Source: Azolla caroliniana
Lineage: Eukaryota; Plantae; Polypodiophyta
Length of the DNA stretch: 64,000 nucleotides
Direction of reading: 5' to 3'
Assembly (NCBI GenBank): GCA_043228905.1
Contig: JBHGNT010000008.1
Location: 13,020,001 to 13,084,000 of the forward strand
Shown here: piece by piece, positions 4,878-61,941 of the stretch
Position numbering within the stretch: position 1 is the stretch's first letter
Layout of the letters: the number at the start of each line of letters is the position of its first letter
Position numbers and translations under genes: made by a program
Notes under the pieces: generated by a model
The model's database searches: none
Seen by the model: only the letters and a program-made list of their open reading frames with translations
What the model was told of the DNA's origin: nothing

Positions 4878-4932
4878 TAGCTTTAGTGGTAAGGTAATTG
4901 CCTCTTATCTTAGAGGTGCAAGGTTCAAATCC
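4878..4932 (+). promoter_or_regulatory. tRNA-like Pol III A-box/B-box cassette in the H LTR
   Basis: TAGCTTTAGTGG at 4878 and GGTTCAAATCC at 4922; spacing 44. Confidence 0.6.
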
Positions 4933-25426: not shown

Positions 25427-26844
25427 TTTCTGCACTGCCGTCGCTCTGATACCACTTTGTTGTGAATCCACGCACGGATTCACCTTCACCGTTCGGCCAC
25501 AGCCGAGAAATCACGAATCAATGCAGCAGAAAATAGGAAACACAGAGACAGACACGATAACACAGGGATTAACGTGGAAAACCCTATACGGGGAAAAACC
25601 ACGGGAGTCCTCAAACTCCAACTATCACTATAAACAGAGATGTACAATGGTGAAGCTACAAGGCAACGACCTTGAGCTCACTGTCTTCGCCACAGGCGGC
25701 GGTAATACACAGAGGCAACGACCTCTTCGTCTTTCTCACTCTCTCTCACTCTCGGCTGCTCTCTCTTGGCATAAAAATAAGCAACAACTTACAGCACTCA
25801 CAAACAGTTTGCCCTAAGTCATATTTATACACATATAACTTTCAGGCTATTTACAAATATAGCCACAAGGGCCCTTGGCAAACATATTCACAAATATGTC
25901 CCCGCATCCGGATCTCTCTCCGGGTACATACATCATCCGGCTCCGGAGCCGGGTCTTCGTCATCCGGCTTCACAGCCGGGTCTTCATCATCCGGCTCCGT
26001 AGCCGGGTCTTCGTCATCCGGCTCCGTAGCTGGGGTCTTCGTCATCCGGCTCCGTAACCGGGGTCTTCATCATCCGGCTCCGTAGCCGGGGTCTTCGTCA
26101 TCCGGCTTGCCGTCATTCATCTCCGGACATCCCATCCGGAGGGACCGTTGTCGAGATATTTTGCAAGTGCGTGTGGAGATGAGGCGGGACCGCGGGGGTC
26201 TCGAACCAAAGAGCAAGCGAGGGAGGAGAAAGAGGGAGTACCGGCTACGCAGGACCGGGGATACACAGGGACACGGCCCTTCAGCACGGAGAACGCGAAC
26301 AGACACCGACACAGACAGACACGAACGACTAAATATGTATATTAACAAAAATGGCTAACACGACTACAACCCTCGATGGGGCACAGGTTGGTTACAACCG
26401 AACAGGCCGGCGAACAGATGCCGATGCCTGTTCGCTTCGACGCACAAACGGGGTAGCAGCTCGGAGGTGCTGCCGGAAGCACTCGGGCGTTCCTCGAAAC
26501 AGCGCGAGCCTCCTCGGAACCCTGCACAGAAAGCTATGGAGCTCAAGAAGGAAGGAAACAGAGAGAGAAGCGTCCAGAAACGGTCCGACAGCACTTCGTC
26601 CTCTCTGCCCCCCCCCCAGATCTCTGCAACAGCTCTTTCCTGCTCCTTATATATCCGACGAGCAGGCCGTCATGTCAGCTTTATTCCCTGTCCCTTTGGA
26701 CAGGGATCCGCTCCGTTCTTCACGCATCCGCATAGTTACGCCTCCGACTCGTACAGTTCCTTAACTCGCGCGCGCGACCGAAAAGACTGTTCGCACGGTC
26801 TTTGTCTCCACTTGTGTTAGGGCCCGTTCCTGCCGGTTATCCTC

Positions 26845-29800: not shown

Positions 29801-30498
29801 GGTACATGCGGTACCGTGAATATCACCATCGGCTCTACGATCGTCGGGTCCACGCACCCGATTTCCTTCGGCGAGAATGCGAAGGCTTTCCCGTGCCTTC
29901 CGAGCATTCTCCGGAACCGGTCTTCCTCCGCCGGCAGTAGGAACCCGCCCCCACCGATCTTCAGCTCGCGGAGCGTCTCGTCGGTGAAGGTGTGTCCTAT
30001 GCAGGCCCGATCTCGTAAGCTGGGGTCCGATGCAACCCCTTTAATCCGGGATTCACTGCCCTCCGGTAAGGGCGCCGCAACTGGCCTCACCTTCCGGTCC
30101 ACCGTCTTGTACTTGGTGCTCACTCGGGCCGTCCGTTCCGACTCGAGCCCTCGACCGAAGTCCGCGATGACTTCGTACATTTCTTCGGAACATACCGGTA
30201 TCGTCCGGTCTTCGTTAAGGTCTTCTTCGACTACCTTCCCCAGCATTCCCAAGGTGTCGTCGAAAGAGACTGCCTCCACGGCTCCGTTGATTCCTTCGTC
30301 AGGGCCGAGAACTCCGCACGCCCGAAGTCTCCCCTCCGTCTTTGTTTTCTCTCGGCCGGTGATGCCGACCATCGTACATGCTCCGCTGTCGGAGAAGCAA
30401 AATTTCCTACCTATTGTGCACGGTTTTATCGTACAGATGTGGGGTTTTCCCGGAGCATCCGGACTGTCGCGGCCCCACGCCTTGGCAGTCCTCTCTAA
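26845..30498 (-). CDS. pol: Pol (RT-RNase H-integrase) of G, in the -1 frame relative to gag-pro
   Basis: LPQGGTNS, FLDD, VDTSPTGIG, HDSPWAGH..CESC and ADRGE..KVERG. The frame is open back to the gag stop. Confidence 0.92.
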   Translation of the reverse strand, partial: LERTAKAWGRDSPDAPGKPHICTIKPCTIGRKFCFSDSGACTMVGITGREKTKTEGRLRACGVLGPDEGINGAVEAVSFDDTLGMLGKVVEEDLNEDRTIPVCSEEMYEVIADFGRGLESERTARVSTKYKTVDRKVRPVAAPLPEGSESRIKGVASDPSLRDRACIGHTFTDETLRELKIGGGGFLLPAEEDRFRRMLGRHGKAFAFSPKEIGCVDPTIVEPMVIFTVPHVPWNLKPISVPRAHIPKLMELLKQKVDMGILEPSSAPYSNRWFTVPKKNGSLRFIQDLQPVNRVTIRNAGIGPTIDEFAEAFAGRSIYSVGDLYSGYDQFQLAVESRDITTMRTPLGLVRMCTLPQGGTNSVAHMVNAMNKVLRDCIPDITMPFLDDIPIKGCPVEEKDETVGPDGCRRFVMAHIDDCEKVLQRLEDARLTFSGEKSAFGQSEIMVVGHLCGPYGRKPSPAKVEAISAMKPDCSSVTEVRRFLGACAFYHIWIPHYAHVAEPLYGLLRKGRRFEWLDKHKESVRKLKEALSAAPALRKAVYRKGTPVYITVDTSPTGIGWVVNQEDGDGNRFPIRFGATVLSERQRGYAQVKRELWGIVSAVKADKDYLIGTEVIIETDCMPILGMVSGCATPDLAMLRWIAYIKSLDPGIRHISGKDNAMADMLSRARFDDEGGMISEDEEVGVDFFETAYVTTDGTSTPALNDFDASKYDGEWLQIGGFLKTMTPDASWTKDEANRIRKKAYRFFLRDGYLWKHPKRRNGVPLRVVAMKEEQEELLTVYHDSPWAGHRGTWATFEKLKGKYWWPGQYQDVHRFVTTCESCQMHSIVRHRDELHPTYPPTIHFKWMVDLVTMPMGVGQMRYLVLAREDLTNQVEGRALPNKTTAAVCRFLIEDVICRYGCVGKIVADRGELDAEEAAELFDRLGVKLSLTTAYNPEANGKVERGHGPIVKALVRACRGQVGNWPRLLPYALWADRTTHSSVTGYMPTELMFGQKPIMPMERTISSWATVDWRDEMNREELLAARIRQLERRPEDVELAAERLRVARAKNKARFDRTHRLRPKKIEEGDWVLVYDSSLDNQHRATRKFARRWFGPYVVRSANDNGTYHLAELDGTRVAIPVAGKRIKAFKKRHDDEPDPALLVSSDERSETRKNRRARNEDGPVFSVPTLLAHTGGCAVRWGRMSRRKPSIGGIGAPRRGYRFFTRASSKLYIEAS

Positions 30499-32621
30499 AA
30501 ATCCTCTCGGTTTTCGGAACCGAGGGAATCGCGGTTACGTTCGTGGTTCGGCCGTACCGTCAGAAACTGGACCGAATGGCGCCCGTCTTGGCTTTTGACC
30601 CTTGCGTAGGCCGAACCATTGTCCAGCACTTTGGTCTCCATTCGCGCCGCCGTGATGTACGGCTCTCCCAGAATGACCGGATGCGAAGACGTCTCCTGCA
30701 CGAAGAAGTGCTGGTCAATCTCGACGTCGTCGATCTTGACTCGCACATTCGGACAGGCCCCGTGCAGTTCCTCGGTGGCGCGCGTTGCTGCCCTTATTTT
30801 CCACCCGTGCTTGGTGTTGATCGGCCATTTGCCCTTCTTATAGAAGTCCATGGACATCAAATTGATCTCCGATCCGTGGTCCACCAAAGCTATCACCGGT
30901 TCCTGGACATCGCCGATCCTCACCGGGGTTTCCGTGGTCGCTCGAGCCCAGTGTGGTCTCGAATAGTGGCTTTCCGCCCACTCGTCTCCCAGCGCCATGT
31001 CGTCTAGGTGCGTCGTCCGCACTTCCACCGGTCTTTCCGGTTCTGTCTCCGTCGACAGCCTCTTCCGTTTCACCAAGTCCACGATGGAGTCGTGGAACTC
31101 CTTCTTGGCGATTCCCAGCACCTCTCGTAACGACAGCTCCACCTTGCTGTCGAGGATCCGTTCCTCCAGGACCTTTCGTAAGTCCGTGGTCCTTTCTATC
31201 TCCGTCCCCAGACGGTACCCGCCCTTCTGGGGTTTATCTTGCGTACCGGCCCCGCCGGCTTCGTCCCGTCGTGGCCCGGACCGGGTCTCGTATCGTTGTG
31301 AGGGCCCGGTCGTCCCGGGTCTCCCCACCCGCTTCTCTTCTACCAGAGCCTCGTAGTTCTGGCAAGCGGCTTCCACGAAGCTCGTCCTTTCCTCGACCGG
31401 GTCGCTCCACCCGGTCATCTCCCGTACCCGTTTCTCCGCACGGTCCGATTCCTCCCCTTTAAGCCTTGCACCGGCAAGGCCTTCCAGCATCGTCGGCCAG
31501 AATCCGGCTTTGCTTTCCCTTCGGGCCTCGCAACCCCCGACTCGAATGCCGGCCGACGCCGAGTAGTGGACGGTTTCCGCGTGTCGGGCCGCCGCCTCTT
31601 CCATCAACCTTTTCATACCACCTTTTCCGTCGTTTCGGCTCAGGGCCCTTCGGGTGTCGCTGGCATGCACCCGTCCTTCCCACAGGTACACCACCCTGTT
31701 CCTCAGCGCCTCCGCGAAGTCGCCGCAGTCCTTCCGAATGTGGCCGACTTCATCGCACCACATGCACCTGTTTCCTGCCGCCGGCCGTCGGTCACGAGCC
31801 GGTTCGCCTCCTTCCCTTCGGGCCTGCGCGATTTGGAGGTCCTTTATCGCCTTCGTCAATTCCTCCAGCGCCGCTCCTCCGGTTGAGCCTCTGACTACGC
31901 CGGTCGAAGCCGAACCGGTTTCCAACCACCCCTGGGTCTCTTCCTTGCGCACCTGTGGCGCTGGTTCAGGCTTCCTTGCTGCGACCGGGCCCGACCCGGT
32001 CGCCCCGTTATCCGCCCATTCTCGCCGTTTGTCGAAACGGCCACAGACCTTCCTGACAGCCGCCCAGTCGGTAGTGAGCCCGTCCTCGGTTTCCAGCAAG
32101 AGGCCCACTTGCTCCCAATCCCGCTCGTCGACCGACTTGACAAACAGCAAGACCCGGCTCGTGTCCAGGATGGTTCGGTTGAGCGCCGAAAGGCGCGCAA
32201 AGTTTTCCTCGAACTCCCGGAGGAGCGCCGACGCGTTTCTTCCCTTCCCCGGGGACTCCACCCATTCCATGAACCTTCGCTTCGAAAGCCGGAGCGCGTC
32301 GTCCAGCCCGTATTTCTCTAGGAGCCGACCTTCGAACTCCTCCCAGGTACGGCTCTCCGTCCGCACCTCAAGCACCTCCGCATGGATGCTCGGCATCGCC
32401 ACTCGGGGAAATCCGGCAAGACGCCTTTCTTCCGGAATGTCCCGCATCAGCATCTCTGCACCGTAGGACGCCAAATACTTCGTGGCATCCTTCCCATCGA
32501 ACCGGCCGATCGTGCCGACGACCGCCTCAATAGCTCTGTCGAGGGCACCGGTGATCTCGCGCGCGTTTACAATCCGATCCACGGCCGAAGCCATGGCCTC
32601 TGCGAGATCCGACCCCCTCAT
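30495..32621 (-). CDS. gag: Gag-protease ORF of G
   Basis: ATG just after the PBS. CMWCDEVGHIRKDC knuckle and aspartic protease motifs LVDHGSEIN and VILGEP. Confidence 0.92.
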   Translation of the reverse strand: MRGSDLAEAMASAVDRIVNAREITGALDRAIEAVVGTIGRFDGKDATKYLASYGAEMLMRDIPEERRLAGFPRVAMPSIHAEVLEVRTESRTWEEFEGRLLEKYGLDDALRLSKRRFMEWVESPGKGRNASALLREFEENFARLSALNRTILDTSRVLLFVKSVDERDWEQVGLLLETEDGLTTDWAAVRKVCGRFDKRREWADNGATGSGPVAARKPEPAPQVRKEETQGWLETGSASTGVVRGSTGGAALEELTKAIKDLQIAQARREGGEPARDRRPAAGNRCMWCDEVGHIRKDCGDFAEALRNRVVYLWEGRVHASDTRRALSRNDGKGGMKRLMEEAAARHAETVHYSASAGIRVGGCEARRESKAGFWPTMLEGLAGARLKGEESDRAEKRVREMTGWSDPVEERTSFVEAACQNYEALVEEKRVGRPGTTGPSQRYETRSGPRRDEAGGAGTQDKPQKGGYRLGTEIERTTDLRKVLEERILDSKVELSLREVLGIAKKEFHDSIVDLVKRKRLSTETEPERPVEVRTTHLDDMALGDEWAESHYSRPHWARATTETPVRIGDVQEPVIALVDHGSEINLMSMDFYKKGKWPINTKHGWKIRAATRATEELHGACPNVRVKIDDVEIDQHFFVQETSSHPVILGEPYITAARMETKVLDNGSAYARVKSQDGRHSVQFLTVRPNHERNRDSLGSENREDF

Positions 32622-33483
32622 CTTCTGCTCTTCTGCCGCCTCTTTCACGTCGGGTTCACCAAAGATGTCGAGATATTTTGCAAGTGCGTGTGGAGATGAG
32701 GCGGGACCGCGGGGGTCTCGAACCAAAGAGCAAGCGAGGGAGGAGAAAGAGGGAGTACCGGCTACGCAGGACCGGGGATACACAGGGACACGGCCCTTCA
32801 GCACGGAGAACGCGAACAGACACCGACACAGACAGACACGAACGACTAAATATGTATATTAACAAAAATGGCTAACACGACTACAACCCTCGATGGGGCA
32901 CAGGTTGGTTACAACCGAACAGGCCGGCGAACAGATGCCGATGCCTGTTCGCTTCGACGCACAAACGGGGTAGCAGCTCGGAGGTGCTGCCGGAAGCACT
33001 CGGGCGTTCCTCGAAACAGCGCAAGCCTCCTCGGAACCCTGCACAGAAAGCTATGGAGCTCAAGAAGGAAGGAAACAGAGAGAGAAGCGTCCAGAAACGG
33101 TCCGACAGCACTTCGTCCTCTCTGCCCCCCCCCCCAGATCTCTGCAACAGCTCTTTCCTGCTCCTTATATATCCGACGAGCAGGCCGTCATGTCAGCTTT
33201 ATTCCCTGTCCCTTTGGACAGGGATCCGCTCCGTTCTTCACGCATCCGCATAGTTACGCCTCCGACTCGTACAGTTCCTTAACTCGCGCGCGCGACCGAA
33301 AAGACTGTTCGCGCGGTCTTTGTCTCCACTTGTGTTAGGGCCCGTTCCTGCCGGTTATCCTCCTAACTCGCTTCTATGTACAACTTGGAGCTTGCGCGCG
33401 TGAAGAACCGGTACCCACGCCTAGGTGCGCCGATTCCGCCTATGGACGGTTTTCTTCGCGACACCGTAAATCCCAACAGACAC

Positions 33484-43579: not shown

Positions 43580-45960
43580 GTGCGATGGATTCGAGTAGGG
43601 GACAAAACCACGAAGGAATTCTTCCGCTCCAAAGGCCCGAGGCACGCTAGAACAATGATGCGCAGTCTCAACCGAGAGGATGGCGACGAAATGAGGAATA
43701 TTGCCACAAGTTACTATAAACGCCTACTTACTGAAGATATTGTGGGCACAAGGGAAGACATAAGGGAAGATATTATCCTCCAAAGCATACCCGAGAAAGT
43801 CACGACGGAAACGAATACATGGCTCGTGCGTCCCCTATCAATCATCGAGATATGGGAGGCCCTCTCTAATTTGGATGTAGATAGTTGCCCCGGAATTGAC
43901 GGCCTCAACCCTCACTTTTCACATGCCTTTGGGACACTATTAAAGAAGAACTCCTCCAGGCATATGAGGAGATCATCACCTCTAGAAACATGGCGGAGGA
44001 ATTTGGACAGGGGATGATATATCTCATTCTTAAAAGTGGTGGGAGTGCCAACGACATTAGCAAGTGGCACGCCGTTTAACACCACTTCTCCCTCAACTCA
44101 TTCATCCATCCCAGACAAGTTTCGTTAGAAATCAGAGCATCCTAGACAACATCTTCCCATTCTGGGAAGCAGTAGCCCTTACCAAGCGTACCAACAACAA
44201 GGTGGCGGTGGTGCTAATAGATTTTGAGAAAGCATATGACAGGGTATGTTGGAACTTTCTAGAAAGTGTGATGGGGAAACTCAACTTTCAAGAGACATGG
44301 ATCAAAGGCATTGCAAGACTTTATAGGAACGGCAGCAGTTGCGTTACACTGGCAAGTGAAAGGGGCCCCTTTTTCCGAATATCCTGATCTGTACGACAGG
44401 GATGCCCACTAGCTCCATCCTTATTTCTATTATACGTTGAAGCACTCTCTTACTTTCTCAACTCGTGGCATCTCAACCTACGTGGTCTTCCTGTACCTCA
44501 TTCTCACCAAAGTATCCTAGATATAGAATTTGTAGATGAAACAGCGGTCTACCTGAAGGGGACTTGGAAAACCTCCAAAAGCTAGAAAGTGGATTAGTCA
44601 TATTTTACAAGAGATCCAATTCCATGATCAATTGGCACAAATCCTGTGCAATATGGCTTTCTCATGAACACATCCTACGTGGCACCCACATCCCTCTTTC
44701 AAATGGATCAATCAAGGAGCGAGCACCAAATATTTGGGTTTCCAAATTGGTTTCAACATACCGCCAAAGACAATGATTGCACCCATTATCCATTCCATTC
44801 AACAAAACTTGATACATTGGAGTTCGAAAAAACTATCTCTAGTGGGTTGCATCATAGTGGCAAACCAGGTACTATTCGTAACAGCATGGTACAGTCTATC
44901 ATGTTGGACAATCTCCAAGGAAAGTATACATCATATTCAACGACTGGTATGCAACTACATTTGGTCTGGTAAGGAAGATCATGTAACTCGCGCCAAGGTG
45001 GCGTGGCCTATACTCACAGCACCTAAGTCAAGAGGGGGATTGGGTCTTATTGATCCCCTTTCACAATCAAAAGCCTTACTTGCCAAATTTGTGGTGCGAG
45101 GACTCCAACCAGGAAATGATTGTTGGAAAATGCTATTGCCGTTACGTTTCGCTTACTTTAGGCCACGAAAAGGGGTCAATTAGGCCCCCCAAACGGGATG
45201 GATTCTAAACATGGATCTCAAACCTAGTTTCTCCCGCCAATTGGAGGATAGATTCAGTGCATCCATGTGGAAGGCATGGTGTGACATTAGACGAGGGCTC
45301 AAGTGTGATCAACCGAGTTCCGAACCTGCCTGGCTCAGTCAACGTATCCTATGGAACCCATGTATCAAGGATGAATCTAATCAACTATTGGGATCACGTT
45401 GTCGTGCCTTTCGGCTCCGGATCGTTTGCGTGAGTCGGGTGGGAACCACCGGGGTTTTGGACTAGGAGAAAAGAAAAATACAAATAAGGCTAGTAAAGAA
45501 TAGGTATAAAGAGTTATAAGATAAGAATCTCGTGAATTCCACGAGTTTAGTATATTTAGTCAATATTTAGGTAGTAAGAGAGAATTATTTTAGCAAATTC
45601 GTGAATCCCACGAATATTTTAGATTGATTGATCACTATAGAAAAATAATCAACAAAAACTACAATGTGCTCCCCATCCTTATATAGTGATGGGAGAGACT
45701 AAGCATAGCTACATGCTTTTTCTCATATGTTCATGCACACTAAATGTGCATGTGATGCTTTTCTAATCCTTGCTTTTATTTGCTAAATATAGTGCTCATG
45801 CACGCTAGATGTGCATGAGTCACTTTTTAGTTGCTTGCGTTTTTTTTTTCTATAAAATATTCACGCACTCTAAAAATGCATGATTTACCTTTTAATAAAG
45901 GTAGGCGCAAATAAAGGACTTATAATTATTAAATCTATTTATAGAACACTAAAGATAAGG

Positions 45961-46014
45961 TAGCATAATGGTAAAGTTGAGGTTTGGCTACGTGGAGGTA
46001 CAAGGTTCAAATCT
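45961..46014 (+). promoter_or_regulatory. tRNA-like A/B-box cassette in the solo LTR
   Basis: TAGCATAATGG at 45961 and GGTTCAAATCT at 46004; spacing 43. Flanked by ATAAGG/CCTTAT, an acceptor-like stem. Confidence 0.6.
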
Positions 46015-46026
46015 TGCCTTATGCAC

Positions 46027-46170
46027 GTGATAAATATCTTGATATTCTTATTTTATTTATTGGTGATAAATATCTTGATATTCTTATTTTATTTATTGGT
46101 GATAAATATCTTGATATTCTTATTTTATTTATTGGTGATAAATATCTTGATATTCTTATTTTATTTATTT
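46027..46170. repeat. 4 x 36-bp tandem repeat (GTGATAAATATCTTGATATTCTTATTTTATTTATTG)
   Basis: Head-to-tail copies with no spacers. Confidence 0.95.
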
Positions 46171-46929
46171 ATATGTAATTAAATCGGTTATATTATTTTT
46201 ACTTTTTCACGTAGTGTACGAAATACACTACGACAACGTAAGGGGTTGTCATGGGGATACATTGCAGAAGGTTCAGGAAAAAGTATAGAATGTTGGAGAC
46301 GGTTTATGTCACTGCCATTACAAGATCAAGCCAACATACTCCATGGAATTAGGGGCGGATGGACTATGAGATCGGAAATCATTAACAGTCTACTGATTAG
46401 GGAAGCTTCTACTCAAAGGACGACAATGGAGAAATGGATAGGCTACGAGGAGGAGGGATCTATGATCCCAAGAGGTAGGGGAACACCAGACAGGATCGAA
46501 GGCTCTGAATTGCGAGACACTAAGACACCAACACAGAATAACACAATTCGAGTACTCGCGTATACTGGTCATAAATGGATTGTAGATCCTGATCCGATCA
46601 AAGTACAACCCGATCGGCACATATGTACTCATGAAAACACATGGCTACATAAGGTCAGTTGGGACCCTTTGCAATGGACATGGCGTGATCTTTACGCGGG
46701 GCAAGGAAGTAAACCCATCCCTTTCTTCCAATTCACAACTAGATTGGGTCGCCAGATTCTAGCTACTCAAACCACTCGAGAGCCGACTGCTACAAAGGTC
46801 TGGCACACATTTCAAGTTTCTCACACAATTATCACCAAGTTTGGGCAGAAAATCTAGAAACAACACACGAGGTGAATTACTATGTTCCAATGGCTATTAA
46901 TACATATGTCACTACCAGTTGTCATGGCA

Positions 46930-46983
46930 AGACTCGAACCCATGACTTTATGCTACATGGGTCGAGCTCTTACCATTAGATTA
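46930..46983 (-). promoter_or_regulatory. tRNA-like A/B-box cassette in the chromovirus LTR (second copy 52175-52228)
   Basis: Minus strand TAATCTAATGG ... GGTTCGAGTCT; spacing 43. Confidence 0.5.
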
Positions 46984-47426
46984 TGAATTGTATTTTGTAG
47001 GATATTATTTTCATTTATACTTTATCATAGAAAATTGATGTATATTCCAGATCTCTCTGGAACATTCTAGAAGCTTCAGGATTATTCCTAAAAACACTAT
47101 AAAAGGAGGCACAAGGCATTGTTTTGAACCAAATTGGTTCAACGCCAGTCTTAAGCCTCTTAGCCGCTTGTACTTATCTTTTCACATAATATATAGCTGC
47201 TGTCATCATCTCTCTCTCTCTCATTCTCGCTATCTCTCTCTCTCTCCTCTTCTCACTTCCTCTCTCGGGAATCTTACGCGGTCCCGTCCTCTTAGTACTA
47301 ATAGTACTACTGTTCTTAGTACTAATTCCATCTCTGTTTTAGTACTATTCCTGACAGTTTGAACCAATTTCCTTCCTCTAGCCTACTTGTCACTCTCCCT
47401 CATCCTCCTACCCTTTTCCCTATACT

Positions 47427-48584
47427 ATGGCTACTGTTAGCGCCCAAGAATACCAATCCGTTTTCTCCGAGCTACAGTGCCTAAAAGAAAAGTTTGTTGC
47501 CCTGGAACAAGAAAACCAACGGCTGATAGTGGATCTGCAACAAATCGCTCTAGAAAAACAACAAACGCAACAACAACATGGGGAGTTAGCGTTACGGGTA
47601 CAACAACTCGAAGCAGCGTTGCAACAACAAGGATCTAGTCCCCAAGGATTTCATAAAGAGCCCAAGATTGGACTTCCTGTGAAATTTGATGGAACGCGTT
47701 CGCAATTCCGGGGATTCCTTAATCAGGTACGCTTAGTCATCCAGATGCATCCTTCCCGATATCCCACAGATGCATCTCGAGTCGGCCTAATAGGCACGCT
47801 ACTTAGCGGCTCAGCCTTGGCATGGTTTGCTCCGCTTCTAGAAAAACAATCACCCTTACTTAATAACTTTGAAGATTTTATTGGTGAGTTTAAAGCCTGC
47901 TTTGGAGACACCGACAGCATCAGGATGGCGATCAACAAGATCCGGCGACTGCGTCAAGGCGATCGTCCAGCCTCTGCCTACGCGGCGGATTTCCGCCTAC
48001 TTGCTTCAAATATACCCTGGGATGATCAAGCACTAATGGAGCAGTTTCGCTCTGGCTTGCGAAACGATGTCAAAGATCTACTTCTAACTTTCCCCGAAGA
48101 ACCAAAGTCTCTTACGGAGGCAATCAGTCGAGCAGTTCGATGTGACAACCGCCTTTTTGAACGGCGTTCAGAACGTCAATTACAGATACCACGCTCTAGG
48201 CCAGAGCCCACTTACGCCACAGTCGCGGCTAAACCGTTTGCACGAGACATACCTCAAGCAAATACTTCGACACCGATGGAGATCGATACCATGCGTCGAC
48301 GCGGCCCGTTATCGGAAGAAGAAAAGCAACGACGACGTGCCAATCGATTATGTCTTTATTGCGGTGGACCAGGACATATCGCCATCAATTGTCCCCATAG
48401 ACCAAGAAGACAGGTAAATCAAATCGTCGCCTGTACTAAACCCGAGTCAATTCTTCCCTTCGGAGTGTCTGATAGTATTAATAGTACTAATAGAGTGTCA
48501 GATAGTATTCATAGTACTAATAGCCCAAGTATCTCAAATAAATTTGAAATCCTTAGTCAATTAGATGAAGAGTTAAACGATTGA
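47427..48584 (+). CDS. gag: Chromovirus Gag (coiled coil, Ty3/PEG10-like capsid, CCHC knuckle)
   Basis: EPKIGLPVKFDG, PMEID and CLYCGGPGHIAINC. Confidence 0.93.
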   Translation: MATVSAQEYQSVFSELQCLKEKFVALEQENQRLIVDLQQIALEKQQTQQQHGELALRVQQLEAALQQQGSSPQGFHKEPKIGLPVKFDGTRSQFRGFLNQVRLVIQMHPSRYPTDASRVGLIGTLLSGSALAWFAPLLEKQSPLLNNFEDFIGEFKACFGDTDSIRMAINKIRRLRQGDRPASAYAADFRLLASNIPWDDQALMEQFRSGLRNDVKDLLLTFPEEPKSLTEAISRAVRCDNRLFERRSERQLQIPRSRPEPTYATVAAKPFARDIPQANTSTPMEIDTMRRRGPLSEEEKQRRRANRLCLYCGGPGHIAINCPHRPRRQVNQIVACTKPESILPFGVSDSINSTNRVSDSIHSTNSPSISNKFEILSQLDEELND

Positions 48585-51500
48585 GTCCAGCCAAAATAGG
48601 AGCCATTTGGTTGGACAGCAGCCCTAGATCTGTACAGCCCATTAGTGGTTCCATTCCTTCCAAGCAAGTTAGCAATGTGTTCCTAGCCCAAGTCATTGTT
48701 AGTACTAAAAGTACTCCCCCAGTACCCGTCCTAGCACTTTTAGATTCCGGAGCTAATTCCTGTTTCATGGATCGAAATTTTGCCCAAGCTTCTCAGATAT
48801 CCTTAAGAAAACTTCCTTGTCCCGCATCTGTAGTGGTCATTGATGGTCGTCCCATTGCTTCCGGGAATATTGTAGAAGAATCAGAACCCATTCAAGTTGT
48901 CCTAGGTAGTTTTGTGTGTATAATATCATTTAATATAATTAGTAGTCCAGAGCATCCCATTGTCCTAGGATTACCTTGGCTTGAATTACATAATCCAGCC
49001 ATAGATTGGAGAACAAGAGAAGTCCGATATCGACCACCCCAAGAATCAACTCACCGAGTTTCGACCATTTCACTCCATCAACTACGCGAAGAAGGACCCA
49101 AGGAGGCAATGTTCCTATTTGCCATATCAGTACATCCTTCTAGCACTATTAAGAAGGACTCCTCAATACAACTTCCGGCAAAATATCATCCTTATGCCGA
49201 TGTATTTGACAAGGTAAAAGCCGGTACCCTTCCTCATCACCGTCCCTATGACTGTCCCATCGATTTACAACCAGGAGCCGAGCCACCCTGGGGACCAATT
49301 TACAACTTGTCACCCACCGAGTTAGAAGTCCTTCGAGCCTACATAGAGGAGAACTTGGCAAGCGGGTTCATCCGTCATTCGAAATCTCCGGCCGGTGCAC
49401 CCATCTTCTTTGTCAAGAAGAAAGATGGCTCACTTCGTCTTGTCGTTGATTACCGCGGATTGAATAAAGTCACCATCCGGAATAGGTATGCACTTCCTCT
49501 TATATCAAGTCTTTTAGAGCGAGTTAATGGTGCCAAGTTTTTTACTAAAATCGACCTACGAGGAGCATATAATCTCATGCGGATCCGACCGGGAGATGAG
49601 TGGAAGACCGCTTTTCGCACGCGGTATGGGCATTTCGAGTATACTGTTATGCCGTTTGGCCTAACCAATGCACCCGCAGTCTTCCAACACATGGCAAATG
49701 ATATATTCAGAGACCTCTTGGATATCTGTTTGATCATTTATCTGGATGATCTATTGATTTATTCGAAGACCCAGGAAGAGCACAATTCTCATGTACTATT
49801 AGTACTAAAGCGACTCCGCGAGAATGGTCTTTATGCCAAGTTAGAGAAATGTAGCTTTGACTGCAAGCAAGTGGAATTTCTAGGCTACGTCATCTCCTCA
49901 AAGGGCATCGCCATGGATCCAGCTAAAATCCAAACTGTACTAGAGTGGCAAATTCCACGGTCGGTACGAGATGTACAATGTTTTCTAGGCTTTGCTAACT
50001 TCTACCGTAAGTTTATACAGGATTACTCGAAGATTATTTTACCTCTCACACAACTTACGAAGAAGGGCCAAGCATTTCTTTGGTCCATCGAAGCAGATAT
50101 GGCTTTTCGGCATCTTAAGAAAGCCTTTACATCAGCACCGATTCTAGCTCATGTGGATACAAGCAAACCATTCATCATGGAGGCCGACGCATCAGATTTC
50201 GCCCTCGGTAGCATCCTTTCTCAACAAGGCGATAAAGAAGAGTTGCATCCGGTGGCTTTCCATTCGCGCAAATTCAATGTCGCAGAAATCAACTACGAAA
50301 TACATGACAAGGAGTTATAAGCCATCGTGGATTCATTTGTACAATGGCGGCATTTCTTAGAGGGCTCTCCACATCAGGTCATTGTCTTTAGCGATCATAA
50401 AAATCTTGCTTATTTTCAAAACGCTCGCGTACTAAATCGACGGCAAGCTCGGTGGGCGCAATTCCTCACGCGTTTCAACTTCGAAATCACATATCGACCG
50501 GGGAAGCAGCAAGGAAAAGCAGATGCACTATCACGGCGTTCATATCTTGCACCGCGTCCTGGTGACGCAACATTTGATAATCAAAAGCAAGTAATCTTGG
50601 GACCAACACGATTGCACACGACGCGGATTTTTCACACCCCGATGGATTCACGGATTACCGATGACATACGTGCAACCTTGAAGACGGATAGTTTTGCTCA
50701 AGACGTCCTGGCGCACATTGATACTTCTCGGGCATCCTGTTCTCAGTCTCAACAACCAGGTATTGACTACCGACAATTCGAATATCATGATGGTTTGTTA
50801 TTCTTTAAAAAGCGCGTATATGTCCCCGATTGCTCCTGTCGCCTTCAAATCGTCCAACATTGTCACGACACCCATACGGCGGGACATTTCGGTAGTACCA
50901 AGACGTTGGAGTTAGTGCAGCGATCTTTTTGGTGGCCCCACATGCGCCGTTTTGTCGACGACTACGTTCGGACCTGTGATGATTGCTGCCGAGCAAAGAT
51001 GCCACGACACCATCCATATGGCTTGTTGGAACCTTTACCAATTCCAAGTAAGCCATGGCAGTCTATTTGTCTTGATTTTATTACAGATCTGCCGGTCTCG
51101 AAGGGGTTCGATGCTATCCTAACCGTCGTCGATCGATATACGAAGATGGCACATTTTGTGCCATGTACTAAAGCCATCACTAGCGAGGAAACCGCCGCTC
51201 TTGTTATGCGTGAGGTATTTCGGCATCATGGCCTACCAGACAGTATTATCAGTGACCGAGGCCCGCAATTTGTCTCCAAATTTTGGCAGCATCTCTTCAG
51301 GATGCTCAAGGTCTCCTGCAACCTCTCCTCCGGCTACCATCCTCAAACTGACGGACAGGCGGAACGAACAAACCAAACGTTGGAGCAATATCTCCGGTGT
51401 TTCCTGAGTTATCAACAGGACGATTGGGCCGAGATTCTCCACTTTGCGGAGTTTGCGTATAATAATGCTATTCACTCCTCGACTCGGGTCTCCCCATTTC

Positions 51501-52153
51501 TCGCTTATACCGGTTTCCATCCTCGCTGGTCGGTGATCGACACTCCGGAGCTACCTACCAACCCTCGTGCCGAGGACCATTTGGAGAGGCTACGCAAGAT
51601 CCAGATGGATCTCTCTACTCACCTTCGTCATGCTCAACACACACAGAAGACTTATGCGGATCGTCATCGGATTCCCTCCTCTTTTGCCATCGGAGATCGA
51701 GTATGGCTCTTACGTCGTCACATCAAGACTACTCGACCGTGCGACAAGTTGGATTATCGACGACTCGGTCCTTTCCGTATTACGGGGAAGATTAATGATG
51801 TCACCTTCCGCCTGAATCTCCCTCCGCAGCTTCAGATACATCCGGTTTTCCATTGTTCTCTTCTTGAACCTTATAAAGCAAACACCATTCCCGATCGTGT
51901 GACACCACCGCCGCCCCCGCTGGAGTTGGACGCCGGCCCGGAGTATGAAGTTGCTGCCATCCTCGATTCCAAACTTGTTCGCAACAAACTTTATTACTTG
52001 GTCGATTGGCTCAGTTATAGTCCGAGCGAACGTACTTGGGAACCCGTCGAGAATGTTGCCAATGCACAAGATCTTCTTGCTGATTTCCACCGAAAGTATC
52101 CGGACAAACCCGGTCCGCAATTAGCGCCGACTCGTTCCACTCGTCGTCTTTAA
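48572..52153 (+). pseudogene. pol: Chromovirus Pol (PR-RT-RH-IN-chromodomain) with one nonsense codon at 50318-50320
   Basis: LLDSGA, MPFGLTNAPA, YLDD, ADASDF, ISDRGPQF and chromodomain EYEVAAILD..YLVDW..TWEP. KEL*AI is in frame. Confidence 0.93.
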
Positions 52154-53008
52154 GGGGGAGATAGTGTCATGGCAAGACTCGAACCCATGACTTTATGCTA
52201 CATGGGTCGAGCTCTTACCATTAGATTATGAATTGTATTTTGTAGGATATTATTTTCATTTATACTTTATCATAGAAAATTGATGTATATTCCAGATCTC
52301 TCTGGAACATTCTAGAAGCTTCAGGATTATTCCTAAAAACACTATAAAAGGAGGCACAAGGCATTGTTTTGAACCAAATTGGTTCAACGCCAGTCTTAAG
52401 CCTCTTAGCCGCTTGTACTTATCTTTTCACATAATATATAGCTGCTGTCATCATCTCTCTCTCTCTCTCTCATTCTCGCTATCTCTCTCTCTCTCCTCTT
52501 CTCACTTCCTCTCTCGGGAATCTTACGCGGTCCCGTCCTCTTAGTACTAATAGTACTGTTGTTCTTAGTACTAATTCCATCTCTGTTTTAGTACTATTCC
52601 TGACACCAGTGGGACCATGACAACGTGGGAACCTTAGCTCTCCTAATTGTGTAGAGTGCCCAAATGCAGTAGAATCAATACGACACGCTCTGTGGAACTG
52701 CCCTGCATCCCATCGAATATGGTAGGGGGTTGGCCGCTTGTTGCAATTATGCCAAGTGCAAGGCTCAATCAAGTGGGGAAATATATGTTGGCTATCATGC
52801 CAGACCCTAGTTGGCAGATATGAGCATCAGGAGGAGGGGATGACTTTGGTGATAAAAGCAGAAGAGGTTTCTTTCTCCATTAGCGGCAATGTCCACTCAA
52901 CTCCTCTTAATGACAAATCTCAAGTTGTGTTGGAATTGGTTAGCCCAATAACTCTTTGGATTCTATGGAAACAACGGTGTAGACGAGTCTTCTCCAACCA
53001 AACCGCGT

Positions 53009-56000
53009 TGTCGGGGTGTACTTTGTACACTACGTAAAATATGTGTGGAGTACCCGATTGACAAAGTATAAAGAAATAGGAGAAATACTACAATAATTAT
53101 GTTACATGCATAGGGCAGGATTTGAACCTTGTACCTCCATGTTAATGATTTTAAACCTTACCATTGTACTAAGTTATACTAAACTTCATCCCATGTAAAT
53201 ATTCTAGATAAGCATGATAGAAAAAGTTATTCATGCATACACACTCGAGTTAAAAGAAAAGATGTGATAGAAAGCTAATCATGCACATGTAGTGTGCATG
53301 AAAACTAAAGTTAGAAAAAGCATGATGCTTGCATGTGATCAACTTAGACTCTTCTATCACTATATAAGGAAGAGAGAAAGATGTATAGGGGTTGTTGATT
53401 TTTTTGAAGGGTTGATTAATATATTATATTCGTGGGATTCACGAATTTGCCATCTATTTCTTTCTTTTTATCTAAATTCATATTCTTATCTAACTGTTGA
53501 TTAATACAATATACCCGTGGGATTCACAAGGTTTTTTATATCTTTTAGTTACAACCTATTCACATTCTTATTTTGCCTTGAATTATCCAACCTCCTAGTC
53601 CAAAACCCCAACGGTTCCCACCCGACTCACGCAACGATCCGGTGCCGAAAAGCACGACAGAAGTGGTCAAACCGATGTGAAAACGGGTGCCAAGGAGATG
53701 GAAAATCAACAAGAGGCTAACAACATGATGGCGATGTTCGAGTGGATGCTACAAGAACAACACACGATGTCGGAGATTGCGGCAACAGTAGAGCGGCTCA
53801 TGCAACATAACATGCAATTCAACGGGAAGGATGTGTCGCAATATTTGCGTATTACAAGGCAGAAATGCTACGGTGTGGAATATCGGAAGGATTGCAGGTG
53901 ACATTCTTCAATCAGGTGGCTACGTACGGGCTTCAAGGGAGTATCCACGGGATATGACAACAAAATCCGATGTGGGAAGCATTTGAAGAAGCGCTAAAGA
54001 CCACGTTCGCCATCGAGGACTCCTCCAAGGCAACACGGAGGGGATTCGAAGATTGGGTGGAAACGCCAAAGAAGGGGCTGAAGGTCCTCGATGTGTTTTC
54101 GGCATTCGAAAATTTGGTTCGGGAGGTTGTCCGCGAGAGATCAAGCTCTCCTCGAACCAGACAAAGTGATCATGTTCTTACGAGCCGTGGATGTCAGGGA
54201 CCGGAAAGATCTTGGAATGCTTCTAGAGGACACCACTACTGAGAGTGGCCTCACCAATACATGGGAAAACATGCAGGACATCATTGCGCGATACACAAAG
54301 AGGGGGCAATGACTTGGTAGTGAAGAAAAGAGGGTTTCAGAACCAATTCCGAAACCTAGATCTGGATTGGAAGACCATCAACCGTGGGCTCGGGAGACTA
54401 CGACCGACAAAGGAATCGATGCAACCACGGTGGAGCAGTTGCTGAAGGAGATGGAGAATCTGAAAATCACGATGGTGAAGAAGTCAAATGACCGTCCCAC
54501 AAGTTCCAAGTATATGGACTGTCGATGCATATGGTGTAATAGCACCGAACATGATCGGAGGGATTGCGATGAGCACAAGGAGGCGCTATGACAGGATCTT
54601 ATCTACTACGAGGGAAATTGGATTCATTCGATGGACTCTCGGAAGCCACTCTGACCGAACATCCGAAAAGGAGACATGAAGAAGGTCCTAGAAGAGGAAA
54701 TAGCGGCGAAATGCAATTATGCGACAACCGTGGGGATACGTGTGGGTGAGTCCTCTGGAGCAAAGGCGTCTTTTTGGTCGGAAGTGCTAGAAAACCTCGA
54801 GAAAACTGACTCTAATGAGATCCGAAGCACCGCGGAAGGCATCCGAGAAGCTACGGGATGGGAGTGCCCCGTCGATATGAATAGCATGTATGCCCTATGC
54901 CAATTACATGAGGTGTATGTAGATGAGAAACGATGGTGCACGGATGATGCGGCCGAACCATCAAAGACACCGGAGAGCTGGAACTCCGAAGGGAAGGGGA
55001 AAGGAAAAACAATTCTGTCATTCAAACTCACTTCGGACATCAAGCAATGAACGTACTTAAAAAAGGTGTTCAAGGAGAGAATCCTCGATGGCTGGGTAGA
55101 TTTTTCGCTTCGGGAATTACTCGGAATAGCGAAGGAGTTCCACAATCTTCTTGTGGATCTCATGAAGAGAAAAAGACAAAATACAGAGGAAAATGCTCCA
55201 AGGGTGAATGCAAATACCGTTCTAATGAATGATGCCGAAATGGAGGATGAAATTCCGAACTCCCACTACACAAGGCCACACTAGGCATGCGCAACTATAG
55301 AGACTCCGGTCCGAATCGGAAACATCAAAGAGCCCTTACTAGCATTGATTGATCATGGATCGGAGATCAATACGTACACGACCGTAACCGGAGTAATGAA
55401 GAAAGAATTCTAAAACGTGCAAGATGAGTTACGGTCTGCATCAATAATAAAAGAAGACGAAGAAATCGTGGGAGTAGTTAAAGAAGTGTTCTATGGGAGC
55501 ACGCTACAACGGCTTGAAGAGCTTGTAGAAGACAATAGCTAGGGAGACCGGGTAGTTCCAGTGGAATCGGTCAAGATGTATGGGATCATTGCGAAAATGG
55601 GGCCAGATGCGCTCCGCAAAGAAGAAGCAATGGTATGTACGAAATATAAGACCATGGAAAAGAAGGTGAAACCGGCCGCGGGACCGCTACCCGCCGATAG
55701 CGAACAAAAGAGGAAAGAAGTCTCGAAAGATCCGACACTTCCGAAGATCGTGGATATCATACATGCCTTCACGGATGAGACCCGAAAAAAACTTCGGATT
55801 GGTGGAGGTGGTTTCCTCTCACAAAATGAAGAAGAACAATTTCGTGAGATGTTGGAGCAGCATGGAAGAGCATTTGCATTCACATCGAGAGAGATAGGGT
55901 GCGCTAATCCGAAGATAGTGGAGCCGATGGTGATCTTCACGATTGATCATGTGTCGTGGAACCTAAAGCCGATTTTGGTGCCACAGGTGCATATTCCGAA

Positions 56001-59000
56001 AATCATTCACTTGCTTAAGGAGAAGGTGGCGATGGGGATTCTAGAGCCATCAAATGCTCCGTACTCAAATCGATGGTTTACGGTTCCGAAGAAGAATGGG
56101 TCACTCCAGTTTATTCAAGATTTGCAACCGGTGAACAAGGTCACGATCCGGAACTCCAAAGTCGGTCCAATAATGGACAAATTTGCGGAAGCATTTGCCG
56201 GTCACGCAATATACTCCATCAGAGACCTATACTCCGGCCGGCTATGACCAATTCCAACTAGCCGTGGAGAGCCGAGACATCACTACCCTGAGGACACCGA
56301 TAGGATTGGTCTAGATGTGCACACTACCACAAGGCGCGACGAACTCGGTCGCACATATGATGAATGCGATGAACAAGATGCTCCGGGATTGCATTCCGGA
56401 GATAACGATGTCGTTCCTAGATGACATTCCGATAAAAGGATGTGTGGTGGAAGAAAAAGATTAGATTATGGATGATCGGGGATGCTGAAAGTTTGTAGTC
56501 GACCATATTCACGATTGTGAGAAAGTGTTACGGAAGTTAGAAGATGTGCACCTAACACTCTCCAGAGAGAAATTGGCATTCAGGCAAGAAGAGATATTTG
56601 TAGTCGGACATCTATGTGGGCCCTACGGACGAAGACCGTCACCAACCAAGATTGATGCGATTCAAGCTATGAAAGAAATATGCGAGTCACAATCCGAAGT
56701 CCGTAGGTTTCTTGGGGCATGTGTATTTTATCACATATGGATTCCACACTATGCACACATTGCAGGCCCACTCTATCACTTGTTGTGGAAGGGAAAGAAG
56801 TTCGAATGGAAACCGGAACATACCAAAGCCGTGAAGAAGCTCAAGAAATCACTGCGGAGGGCAGAAGCACTTAAGAAGCCGAACTATGACCGACCGATTA
56901 TAGTAATGGTTGATACAAGTCCAACCGGGATCGGATGGGTCATCAATCAAGTCGATTCGGATGGTTCACAATATCCGATCCGATTCGTAGCAAAAGTTCT
57001 CAACAAAAGGCAACGCGGATATGCACAAGTTAAAAGAGAATTATGGGGAGTCGTGTCGGCGATAAAATCAGATCGAGATTACTTGATCGGAGCCGAAGTA
57101 GTGATTGAAATGGATTGTCTTTCGATACTCGGGATGATGCGGCGTTGCACAATACTGGATATGGTTATGCTAAGATGGATTGCATATGTAAAGTCGCTTA
57201 ATCTAGAGCTACGATACATCTTCGGAAAAGACAACGCGGTAGCGGATATGCTATCAAGGGCACGGTTCGAAGACGACATAGCCGAATCTGATAATGAAGA
57301 AGTTTCCGAAAACTACTTTACTTCGGAGCGCATATGCCGAGTGAACGTAATCCGAGAATTCCGGGAAGAAGAATACGAGGGAGAAAGCTTGCTGATCGGG
57401 AAAGTGCTACAAGAAATTGAGGAATCATCGAACAATAAAGAAAAGAGAGTCGAGATCCGAAGTAAGAAGCGGCAAGTTCATAAGTTTTTCTTGAACAACG
57501 GATTAATCTGGAGGGAGCTGAAAAGACCGGATGGCATACCACTACGAGTAGTTGGAACAAAAGCGCAATGAAACCAGATAATCCGAATGTCACGAATCCA
57601 ATTGGGCTGGACATCGGGGAACATGGGCAATATTTGCGAAGATCAAACAAAAATATTGGTGGAAGAATATGTACAAAGATGTAGCGGAGTTCACAGAATG
57701 TTGTGAGAAATGTCAAATCTACTCTGGAGTTTGACACCAAGATGAATTATATCCGACATTCTCACCGACAATCTACTTCAATTGGATGGTCAACATTGTG
57801 GTCATGCCAACCAGGATTGGACAAAAGAAGTACTTGGTGTTAGCCCAGGAAGATTTGACAAACCAAGTAGAAGGACGGGCACTACGGAGGAAAGCATGTT
57901 CCGTAGTATGCCAATTTCTCTTGGAAGAAGTGTTCTGCAGGTACGGGTGCGTAGGACAAGTGATTGCGGATCGGGGAGAACTTGACTCTGATAAAGCTAG
58001 GGAATTCTTCGTCAGACGTGGAGTATGGTTAACACTAACCACGGCATACAATCCGGAAGCCAACGGGAAGATCGAACAAGGACATAGTCCAATCGTCAAA
58101 GCACTTCAAAAGCATGCGATGAAAGGATGAAGGATTGGCCACAAATGCTTCCGTATGCACTATGGGCGGATCGCACGACGCATAGTTCCGTGACTAGTTA
58201 TATGCCAGCCGAACTTATGACTGGACAAGCATTGGTAATGCCGACGAAAACCGCAATTGCAACATGGACAGTGCTACCATGGAAGCAAGAAATGAGCCGG
58301 GAAGAACTACTAGCGGTCCGAATATGACAACTAGAGGGAAGACCGGAAAACATAGCGGAAGTAACATGCCGACAACAGGAAGCACGATTCCGGAACAAAA
58401 GTTGATTTGACACAAAGCATCGATTACGACCACGGAAGATTGAAGAAGGAGATTGGGTGATTGTCTATGACAGTAGTTTGGATCATCAACATACAACGAT
58501 ACGGAAGTTCGCTAAAAGGTGGTTCGGGCCATACGAGGTTCAGAAAGTTTTTGACAACGGAACTTACCGACTATACGAGTTGGATGGAACAATACTACGG
58601 GTGCCTATAGCGGGGAAACGGGTGAAGATTTTCAAGAAGCAGACTGACGATGAACCTTATGTAAGCTTAGACAAGACTGACAACGAGGAGCAATCAGACA
58701 AAGATCGCAGTGATGCGGAAAGCGAAGAAAGTGGACTACAATTGATAATCGACATAAGGGGAGAATCGGAGAGTGCTACGGATGAAGGCGAATAACAAGC
58801 ATCGGAAACTTTGGCACATACCGGAGGATGTGCAAGTTCAGAGGGGGTGAGTGTCGTGGTGTACTTTGTACACTACGTAAAATATGTGTGGAGTACTCAA
58901 TTGACTAAGCATAAAGAAATAGGAGAAATACTACAATAATTATGTTACATGCATAGGGCAAGATTTGAACCTTGTACCTCCATGTTAATGATTTTAAGCC

Positions 59001-59520
59001 TTACCATTGTACTACCATATTATGAGTTTTAAAGTTATACTAAACTTCATCCCATGTAAATATTCTAGACAAGCATGATAGAAAAAGTTATTCATGCATA
59101 CACACTCGAGTTAAAAGAAAAGATGTGATAGAAAGCTAATCATGCACATGTAGTGTGCATGAAAACTAAAGTTAGAAAAAGCATGATGCTTGCATGTGAT
59201 CAACTTAGACTCTTCTATCACTATATAAGGAAAAGAGAAAGATGTATAGGGGTTGTTGATTTTTTTGAAGGGTTGATTAATATATTATATTCGTGGGATT
59301 CACGAATTTGCCATCTATTTCTTTCTTTTTATCTAAATTCATATTCTTATCTAACTGTTGATTAATACACTATACCCGTGGGATTCACAAGGTTTTTTAT
59401 ATCTTTTAGTTACAACCTATTCACATTCTTATTTTGCCTTGAATTATCCAACCTCCTAGTCCAAAACCCCAACGGTTCCCTCCCGACTCACGCAACGATC
59501 CGGCGCCGAAAAGCACGACA
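53009..59520 (+). mobile_element. Decayed full-length non-chromovirus Gypsy M (G lineage): LTRs 53009-53659 and 58852-59520
   Basis: TGTCG..CGACA termini. Trp-like PBS TGGTCAAACCGATGTGAA at 53664 and PPT at ~58840-58851. Fragmented gag/pol homologous to G. TSD GCGT/GCAC is degenerate. Confidence 0.92.
53118..53171 (-). promoter_or_regulatory. tRNA-like A/B-box cassette in the M LTR (second copy 58961-59014)
   Basis: Minus strand TAGTACAATGG ... GGTTCAAATCC; spacing 43. Confidence 0.6.
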
Positions 59521-61878: not shown

Positions 61879-61941
61879 GTACGTCAAAATCTTAGTTTTT
61901 TCCAGTCCCCCTCCCTCTCCGATTATTTATTTATCTCTTGT

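What the first reader, a model, noticed from the sequence alone, without database searches (positions are those of the whole stretch)
45954..46055. Antisense tRNA-like Pol III (A/B-box) cassettes built into the U3 of LTRs from unrelated Gypsy lineages
Seen: four LTR types carry TRRYNNARTGG(TAA) followed 43-44 nt later by GGTTCRARTC. They are H (4878/4922, +), the solo LTR (45961/46004, +), M (53171/53128 and 59014/58971, -) and chromovirus L (46983/46940 and 52228/52185, -). In every case the cassette lies near the U3 edge and points opposite to element transcription. In H, M and the solo LTR a TTTT run follows inside the LTR. Known: this is the tRNA position 8-to-52 spacing bound by TFIIIC, Cassandra TRIMs carry 5S Pol III promoters in their LTRs, and TFIIIC-bound B boxes can act as chromatin barriers. 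Inference: a tRNA-derived LTR module was acquired at least twice (chromovirus and non-chromovirus). It could make a ~100-130 nt antisense RNA or insulate the LTR promoter from flanking heterochromatin. M and the solo LTR are related, so they are not independent observations.
Basis: partly seen in the sequence, partly recalled or inferred. Interest (0 to 1): 0.85.

Follow-up and report, generated by a model that had tools for sequence, protein, structure and literature searches.

The report
Borrowed tRNA promoters in retrotransposon LTRs
Two unrelated groups of jumping genes, likely from a moss, carry a tRNA-gene-type promoter signal in the control region of their terminal repeats, with its two key motifs and their spacing kept while the rest has drifted, which likely helps them stay switchable-on inside silenced chromatin, though no binding or RNA has been shown.

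Summary
The boxes are real: all six B boxes and five A boxes match as stated (H's A box has one extra base), against none in shuffles. The 'four types' are two lineages: H, M and the solo LTR are Phygy-type, L is a Tcn1-like chromovirus. A scan anchored on the polypurine tract, blind to the cassette, gave 33 Phygy LTR clusters; 11 carry it in U3 (8 antisense, 3 sense), and 26 of 36 A-B pairs are 43/44 nt apart. Box-invariant bases vary less than base-matched neighbours (9 versus 20.4 alleles), but the B box of the solo-LTR group is not conserved, dead-box variants were inherited, and most clusters lack the module. No tRNA fold, no insertion scars, and the T-runs are chance. Best reading: a tRNA-derived Pol III promoter kept as a protein-binding, chromatin-opening element upstream of the Pol II promoter (0.45); a defined antisense RNA is not supported. 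Closest known: Helenus TRIMs. The scan earlier noted antisense tRNA-like units in other Gypsy elements on other DNA (mostly internal), none with this sequence. No RNA or binding data.

The parts
45400..46235 (-). Phygy-type solo LTR, 4-bp target duplication (NCGN) at 45396-45399 and 46236-46239
   Evidence: contigs that skip it (empty site)
45961..45971 (+). A box of the solo-LTR cassette
46004..46014 (+). B box of the solo-LTR cassette, 43 nt from the A box; first T4 at 46051
   Evidence: weak Rfam tRNA match 45954-46024, 17.7 bits, below the 29-bit cut-off
4406..5069 (-). 3' LTR of Phygy-type element H (no pol domain found in its 1.7-kb interior)
4878..4932 (+). H cassette: 12-nt A box 4878-4889, B box 4922-4932
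53009..59520 (+). Phygy-type element M, LTRs 53009-53659 and 58852-59520 (95.5% identical), broken coding region
53118..53171 (-). M 5' LTR cassette (A box 53171-53161, B box 53128-53118)
58961..59014 (-). M 3' LTR cassette (A box 59014-59004, B box 58971-58961)
46920..52605 (+). Tcn1-like chromovirus L, LTRs 46920-47356 and 52165-52605 (98.6% identical), 5-bp target duplication, gag-pol with chromodomain, self-priming site 47359-47370 complementary to 47131-47142
46920..46983 (-). L 5' LTR cassette (A box 46983-46973, B box 46940-46930); tRNA position 72 would fall on the first base of the LTR
   Evidence: numbering is inference
52165..52228 (-). L 3' LTR cassette (A box 52228-52218, B box 52185-52175)
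26149..33462 (-). Phygy-type element K, intact and young (LTRs 99.6% identical), GC-rich LTR with no cassette in U3: internal negative control

Best explanation
These LTRs carry a tRNA-derived A-box/B-box promoter module in U3 that is likely kept as a landing site for TFIIIC and the Pol III machinery, which would hold chromatin open or block silencing just upstream of the element's own Pol II promoter. Shown: the module, its place 115-275 nt outside the TATA-like motif, its presence in two lineages and in either orientation, fixed 43/44-nt spacing, and lower variation of box-invariant bases in two of three families tested. Inferred: origin from tRNA genes or SINE heads captured several times; binding by TFIIIC/TFIIIB/Pol III; a barrier or nucleosome-clearing effect that benefits copies sitting inside other transposons. 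Any RNA made would be a by-product. The module is optional: many active relatives lack it.
For: Cassette-blind sample: 11 of 33 Phygy LTR clusters carry it in the first 400 nt; 10 of 33 representatives against a mean of 0.075 (max 1) in 200 shuffles; 27 hits in 25.0 kb of U3 against 2 in 56.8 kb of element interior. 26 of 36 distinct A-B pairs at 43 or 44 nt out of an allowed 25-75. Alleles at the 11 invariant positions: 9 against 20.4 expected from base-matched neighbouring columns in three clusters (P 0.0014); 0 in H (9 LTRs) and 0 in the L022 group (4 LTRs), while the N positions and spacer vary. Sense copies in 3 clusters, and H-type and L070-type LTRs with similar edges carry opposite orientations. 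No cloverleaf, no shared sequence outside the boxes between most groups, no fixed terminator: what is kept is the protein-read part. In L relatives from four runs of four coded organisms the A-box variants fall on the degenerate positions. Precedent: fission-yeast centromeric tDNA barrier needs the A box and Pol III and is independent of orientation (PMC2040200, passages). The elements here sit nested in other repeats; L has an aromatic-cage-type chromodomain.
Against: In the cluster that holds the solo LTR the B box is not conserved (6 alleles against 4.4 expected). Loss of C56 is shared by related copies (L100+L101, L043+L095), so dead-box versions were copied onward; L004 has a broken B box and L083 a deleted A box. 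22 of 33 clusters score below 20, among them the young intact element K. CpG decay of the B box went both ways, with no clear bias by lineage count. No binding, chromatin or RNA data exist here. The loci come mostly from one series of assemblies and are related, so counts are not independent.
Confidence: 0.45

Rival explanations
1. Passengers: heads of once-abundant tRNA-derived SINEs were picked up repeatedly by AT-rich U3 regions, were copied to both LTRs, and are decaying with no role.
For: Optional and patchy on the integrase tree; either orientation; M-group B box at neutral level; inherited dead boxes; cassette-bearing LTRs have a longer U3 (TATA-like motif at 285-561 nt against 216-277 in most cassette-free ones); Kojima notes that 'not a few' Repbase LTRs hold part of a tRNA (PMC10886601).
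Against: Zero change at 11 invariant positions in two families whose spacer is 67-87% identical; about 30-fold higher density in U3 than in the interior; no flanking duplication or tail; no free SINE copy of the H, M or solo cassettes among 127 loci and the window.
Confidence: 0.27
2. The module is a working Pol III gene whose antisense RNA regulates the element (self-limiting silencing, or pairing with U3/PPT during reverse transcription).
For: Antisense in 8 of 11 Phygy clusters and in L; both boxes kept. From L's 3' LTR an antisense transcript would meet no T4 for 1417 nt; the sense strand there has 0 A4 runs against 3.3-4.4 expected in synonymous shuffles (P 0.004 and 0.001; noticed after the fact, one element).
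Against: Sense copies in 3 clusters; terminator distance 4-78 nt and at chance level; T4 inside the cassette in L101 and L118; no conserved fold or sequence. Long A4-free stretches also occur in K and a Copia element.
Confidence: 0.15
3. The conserved bases serve something other than Pol III: Pol II factor sites, or in L the hairpin at the integrase attachment end, that happen to lie in a tRNA-derived stretch.
For: TGGTAA next to the A box and the 9 nt before the B box are also well kept; in L the B box lies in the loop of a 7-bp inverted repeat at the LTR edge, and other LTRs have edge hairpins too.
Against: Would not explain the same two boxes at 43/44 nt in both orientations, at 21-333 nt from the edge, in unrelated sequence contexts.
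Confidence: 0.13

Closest known systems
Helenus / TRIMp3 (Kojima 2024, PMC10886601; read parts 1-4 of 6 of the main text, not figures or supplements)
   Same: tRNA-like sequence inside LTRs, conserved around boxes A and B, not a working tRNA, proposed to come from SINE insertions several times; one plant family (Selaginella).
   Different: Helenus are non-coding TRIMs of 311-1263 bp whose Pol III promoter is proposed to make the element's RNA. Here the carriers are 5.7-6.5 kb gag-pol elements (L, M) and longer non-autonomous ones with their own TATA-type promoter, the module is mostly antisense, and the paper argues autonomous partners must use Pol II and are unlikely to share such LTR sequence.
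Cassandra and Ajax TRIMs (5S-derived; as described in PMC10886601)
   Same: Pol III internal promoter in both LTRs.
   Different: 5S type (A, IE, C boxes), sense, drives the genomic RNA of a TRIM.
Foamy-virus LTR Pol III miRNA cassettes (PMC3993851; passages)
   Same: A/B-box Pol III units inside the LTR of a full-length retroelement that also has a Pol II promoter.
   Different: They have defined terminators and hairpin products shown by sequencing and mutants; here no conserved hairpin or terminator, and orientation varies.
tDNA and B-box chromatin barriers of fission yeast (PMC2040200; passages) and ETC/COC sites (as reviewed in PMC3159450; passages)
   Same: A+B promoter acting through bound proteins, independent of orientation: the proposed working model.
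   Different: Those are host loci with measured occupancy; here the unit travels in a retrotransposon LTR and is untested.
Phygy and Tcn1 clades of Ty3/gypsy (PMC6317226; passages)
   Same: Carriers fit: NCGN 4-bp target duplication (Phygy); self-priming and aromatic-cage chromodomain (Tcn1).
   Different: The passages seen mention no Pol III module in their LTRs.

Membership tests
Helenus/TRIMp3 | tRNA-like sequence with boxes A and B in the LTR | tested here: met
Helenus/TRIMp3 | TRIM: about 1 kb or less, no coding capacity | tested here: not met
   L 5.7 kb with gag, RT, RH, IN, chromodomain; M 6.5 kb; LTRs 437-836 bp
Helenus/TRIMp3 | Pol III promoter placed to transcribe the element | tested here: not met
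   antisense in all 6 window copies and 8 of 11 clusters; sense copies are followed by T4 within 14-25 nt
tRNA gene | cloverleaf, covariance-model score above cut-off | tested here: not met
   ARAGORN 0; best Rfam score 17.7 of 29 bits with anticodon arm unaligned; no tRNA hit on the LTR cassettes of 8 loci while a true tRNA in L005 scored 51.5; stems incomplete in 15 of 15
Sporadic SINE2 insertion | own target duplication and tail; present in single copies | tested here: not met
   flanking repeats 5-7 nt, chance level; present in both LTRs of L and M and across clusters
Phygy (H, M, solo, K) | 4-bp NCGN target duplication, non-chromovirus Ty3/gypsy domain set | tested here: met
   K and solo exact; M differs at 2 of 4 bases; H has one flank only; K domains and DUF4100
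Phygy (H, M, solo, K) | placement in the REXdb RT/RH/INT tree | not testable with these tools
   REXdb not held; named relatives were Riccia and Adiantum proteins at 40-59%
Tcn1 chromovirus (L) | self-priming PBS and aromatic-cage chromodomain | tested here: met
   12-nt complement; PF00385, Tyr/Trp/Tyr read by eye
Tcn1 chromovirus (L) | placement in the chromovirus tree | not tested
   no reference set fetched
Pol III chromatin barrier | TFIIIC/Pol III occupancy and blocking of silencing | not testable with these tools
   needs ChIP and reporters
Pol III transcription unit | transcript from upstream of box A to a T-run | not testable with these tools
   no raw RNA reads offered

The most novel reading that the evidence does not exclude
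Bryophyte retrotransposons that insert into silent chromatin have repeatedly and convergently captured tRNA promoters as portable Pol III barriers at the outer edge of their LTRs, an anti-silencing device carried in cis by coding elements; in the chromovirus the 3' copy may also launch a 1.4-kb terminator-free antisense Pol III transcript over the integrase-chromodomain region.
Probability: 0.3. Interest if true: 0.88.

Novelty: new variant of a known kind. Interest (0 to 1): 0.62.

Why it matters
How retrotransposons that nest in heterochromatin get transcribed is an open question, and to my knowledge (recalled, not searched) Pol III barrier activity is little tested in plants. These LTRs give a natural series: boxes intact, B box dead, A box deleted, sense, antisense, tandem, and absent, in related LTRs. 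That makes a barrier or opening function directly testable. If bound, thousands of LTR copies would add TFIIIC sites to the genome, and they would confuse tRNA and SINE annotation.

Tried and rejected
No whole genome is held, so no genome-wide copy test. No RNA holder listed; both read layings are assembled contigs and say nothing on expression. In one search no variant of 5% or more is listed in L's B box, but none at the spacer CpG either, and contigs drop variants: inconclusive. Chromovirus relatives with LTRs were not found in viral contigs (0 of 9 candidates; 5 pattern matches were not examined beyond the cassette BLAST, no hit) or genome contigs (2 short contigs; the one with downstream DNA shows no B box). 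The 'generic' A-box pattern was mis-specified (0 observed) and is not used. Of 122 scan loci 43 were dropped as non-Phygy matches, 3 were added back by hand, and 11 of 79 had under 200 nt of LTR. Several cassette-free singletons (L028, L029, L038, L056, L119) stop resembling the family after about 100 nt and may be truncated, so 33 may overstate the denominator. (11 against 32.3 alleles) used hand-added members and is partly circular; one search is the figure relied on. Indels between the boxes were not fewer than upstream (5 against 7) though fewer than downstream (18). The integrase tree (32 rows, 6 of 26 branches firm) cannot count gains. Rejected: functional tRNA, sporadic SINE insertion, Helenus membership, defined short antisense RNA. 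Literature searches with no matching paper: (open-licence library only); the supplements of PMC10886601 and PMC6317226 and Repbase entries were not seen and may list such LTRs.

Full report
Observation. The B-box pattern occurs 6 times in the 64-kb window, at the six stated places, and five are preceded at 43 nt by the stated A box; in H the A box has one extra base and lies 44 nt upstream. The pair is absent from 50 window shuffles and from 1000 shuffles of each LTR; the LTRs of K and of four Copia elements have none. All six lie in U3 and point away from the element's own direction.

What the carriers are. H, M, the solo LTR and a fourth element K share a polypurine-tract block (3 matches, 0 in shuffles), TGTCG...CGACA ends and 4-bp NCGN target duplications, the signature given for Phygy elements in PMC6317226 (passages). 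K is young, intact and has no cassette. L has a chromodomain, a 5-bp duplication and a primer site complementary to its own LTR over 12 nt, which fits the self-priming Tcn1 clade of mosses and club-mosses and puts its start site near 47131. So there are two lineages, not four. The host is likely a bryophyte (inference from these clades and from Riccia relatives). Contigs that skip 45396-46238 show that the solo LTR is an insertion into another repeat.

Cassette-blind sample. 79 were judged Phygy edges, 68 had at least 200 nt of LTR; with 5 window LTRs they form 33 clusters at 60% identity. With hand-set matrices from the recalled consensus, 11 of 33 clusters score 20 or more (8 antisense, 3 sense only; 13 at score 15). 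10 of 33 representatives hit, against 0.075 in 200 shuffles. Density is 27 hits in 25.0 kb of U3, 2 in 56.8 kb of interior and 4 in 29.9 kb further out. 26 of 36 distinct A-B pairs are 43 or 44 nt apart although 25-75 was allowed and the B box lies 91-333 nt from the edge. One family holds two tandem antisense copies and a third in sense. GC-rich K-like LTRs lack the module and have a shorter U3.

Is it under selection? Within clusters, invariant box positions are 94% identical against 73% for the spacer core and 77% for flanks. Using only clustering-defined members, they show 9 extra alleles against 20.4 expected from base-matched neighbours (P 0.0014): 0 in H (9 LTRs), 0 in the L022 group (4), but 3 against 4.6 for the A box and 6 against 4.4 for the B box in the cluster of the solo LTR. 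Some related copies share a lost C56 (L100+L101, L043+L095), and single copies have a broken B box or deleted A box. For L, contigs of four runs from four coded organisms cover the cassette; most have G at position 10 (a better match than the window copy) and other variants at the purine/pyrimidine-tolerant positions. The evidence for constraint is therefore good in two families, suggestive in L and absent for the B box of the family at the finding's coordinates.

What it is not. Not a tRNA: ARAGORN finds none, the best Rfam score is 17.7 of 29 bits, none of eight LTR-cassette loci hit the tRNA model and stems are incomplete in 15 of 15 cassettes. Not a sporadic SINE: no flanking duplication beyond chance and no free copy of the H, M or solo cassettes. 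Not a defined short RNA gene: T4 follows at 4-78 nt, at chance level for the three window cases, and L has none in its LTR. Outside the boxes most groups show no detectable likeness; only M/solo/L064/L101, H/L122 and L120/L022 group clearly, with two borderline pairs among 105, so either several captures or deep divergence; the chromovirus, the antisense Phygy and the sense Phygy forms need at least two captures plus an inversion or a third capture.

Mechanism. What is kept is what TFIIIC reads (two boxes, fixed spacing) and the place (115-275 nt outside a TATA-like motif); direction, spacer, fold and terminator are free. That matches a DNA element acting through bound proteins. Fission-yeast centromeric tDNA barriers need the A box and Pol III and work in either orientation (PMC2040200, passages); TFIIIC-only sites also act as boundaries (PMC3159450, passages). 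These elements sit nested in repeats, so a barrier or nucleosome-free patch at the outer side of the promoter would be useful. Binding and effect are inferred, not shown (0.45). Rivals: decaying passengers (0.27), antisense RNA (0.15; its best support is the 1417-nt terminator-free path from L's 3' LTR found after the fact in one element), other roles of the same bases (0.13).

Known or new. Helenus TRIMs carry tRNA-like boxes in their LTRs but are short and non-coding, and the paper remarks only in passing that other Repbase LTRs hold tRNA pieces (PMC10886601, parts 1-4 of 6 read). Foamy viruses have Pol III miRNA units in the LTR with real products (PMC3993851, passages). Seven searches found no paper on such modules in coding plant LTR elements (open-licence library only). 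Earlier notes of this scan describe antisense tRNA-like units in Gypsy elements of other genomes, mostly internal, and one Helenus copy; none matches this sequence and I did not test them. Verdict: real feature, new variant of a known kind, function likely but untested; interest 0.62.

Noticed in passing
window 50811-52175: The last 1.35 kb of chromovirus L has no run of four A on the sense strand (expected 3.3-4.4 in synonymous shuffles, P 0.004-0.001) and half the third-position A of the upstream pol (15% against 29%); an antisense Pol III transcript from the 3' LTR would have no terminator for 1417 nt.
   Followed up: partly
window 53012-53036, 46208-46232, 46921-46946: Short hairpins at the very U3 edge of M, solo and L LTRs, also in L022; in L the B box is the loop.
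   Followed up: partly
L022 (LTR positions 191, 333 and 704): One LTR family carries two tandem antisense cassettes in U3 and a third, different one in sense behind the TATA-like motif.
   Followed up: partly
L029 82-368: About 70-90 nt pieces 81% like the L cassette end, repeated at about 219-nt spacing outside an LTR.
   Followed up: no
L030; L026 versus L002/L058: Integrase and LTR types do not always match (K-like integrase with M-type LTR; identical integrase segment with and without cassette): LTR swapping or misassembly.
   Followed up: no
window 46028-46170: 36-bp AT-rich tandem repeat, about four copies, in the U3 of the solo LTR, absent from relatives.
   Followed up: no
window about 45300-46919, 52606-53008, 59521 onward: A high-copy repeat with no Pfam match hosts the solo LTR, L and M within about 1.1 kb of its own sequence.
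   Followed up: partly
window 61260-61880: First exon of an equilibrative nucleoside transporter-like host gene (PF01733) with a Copia fragment behind it.
   Followed up: no
L005 137-208; L020 955-1025: A true tRNA gene (51.5 bits) and a decayed tRNA (29 bits) next to Phygy LTRs.
   Followed up: no
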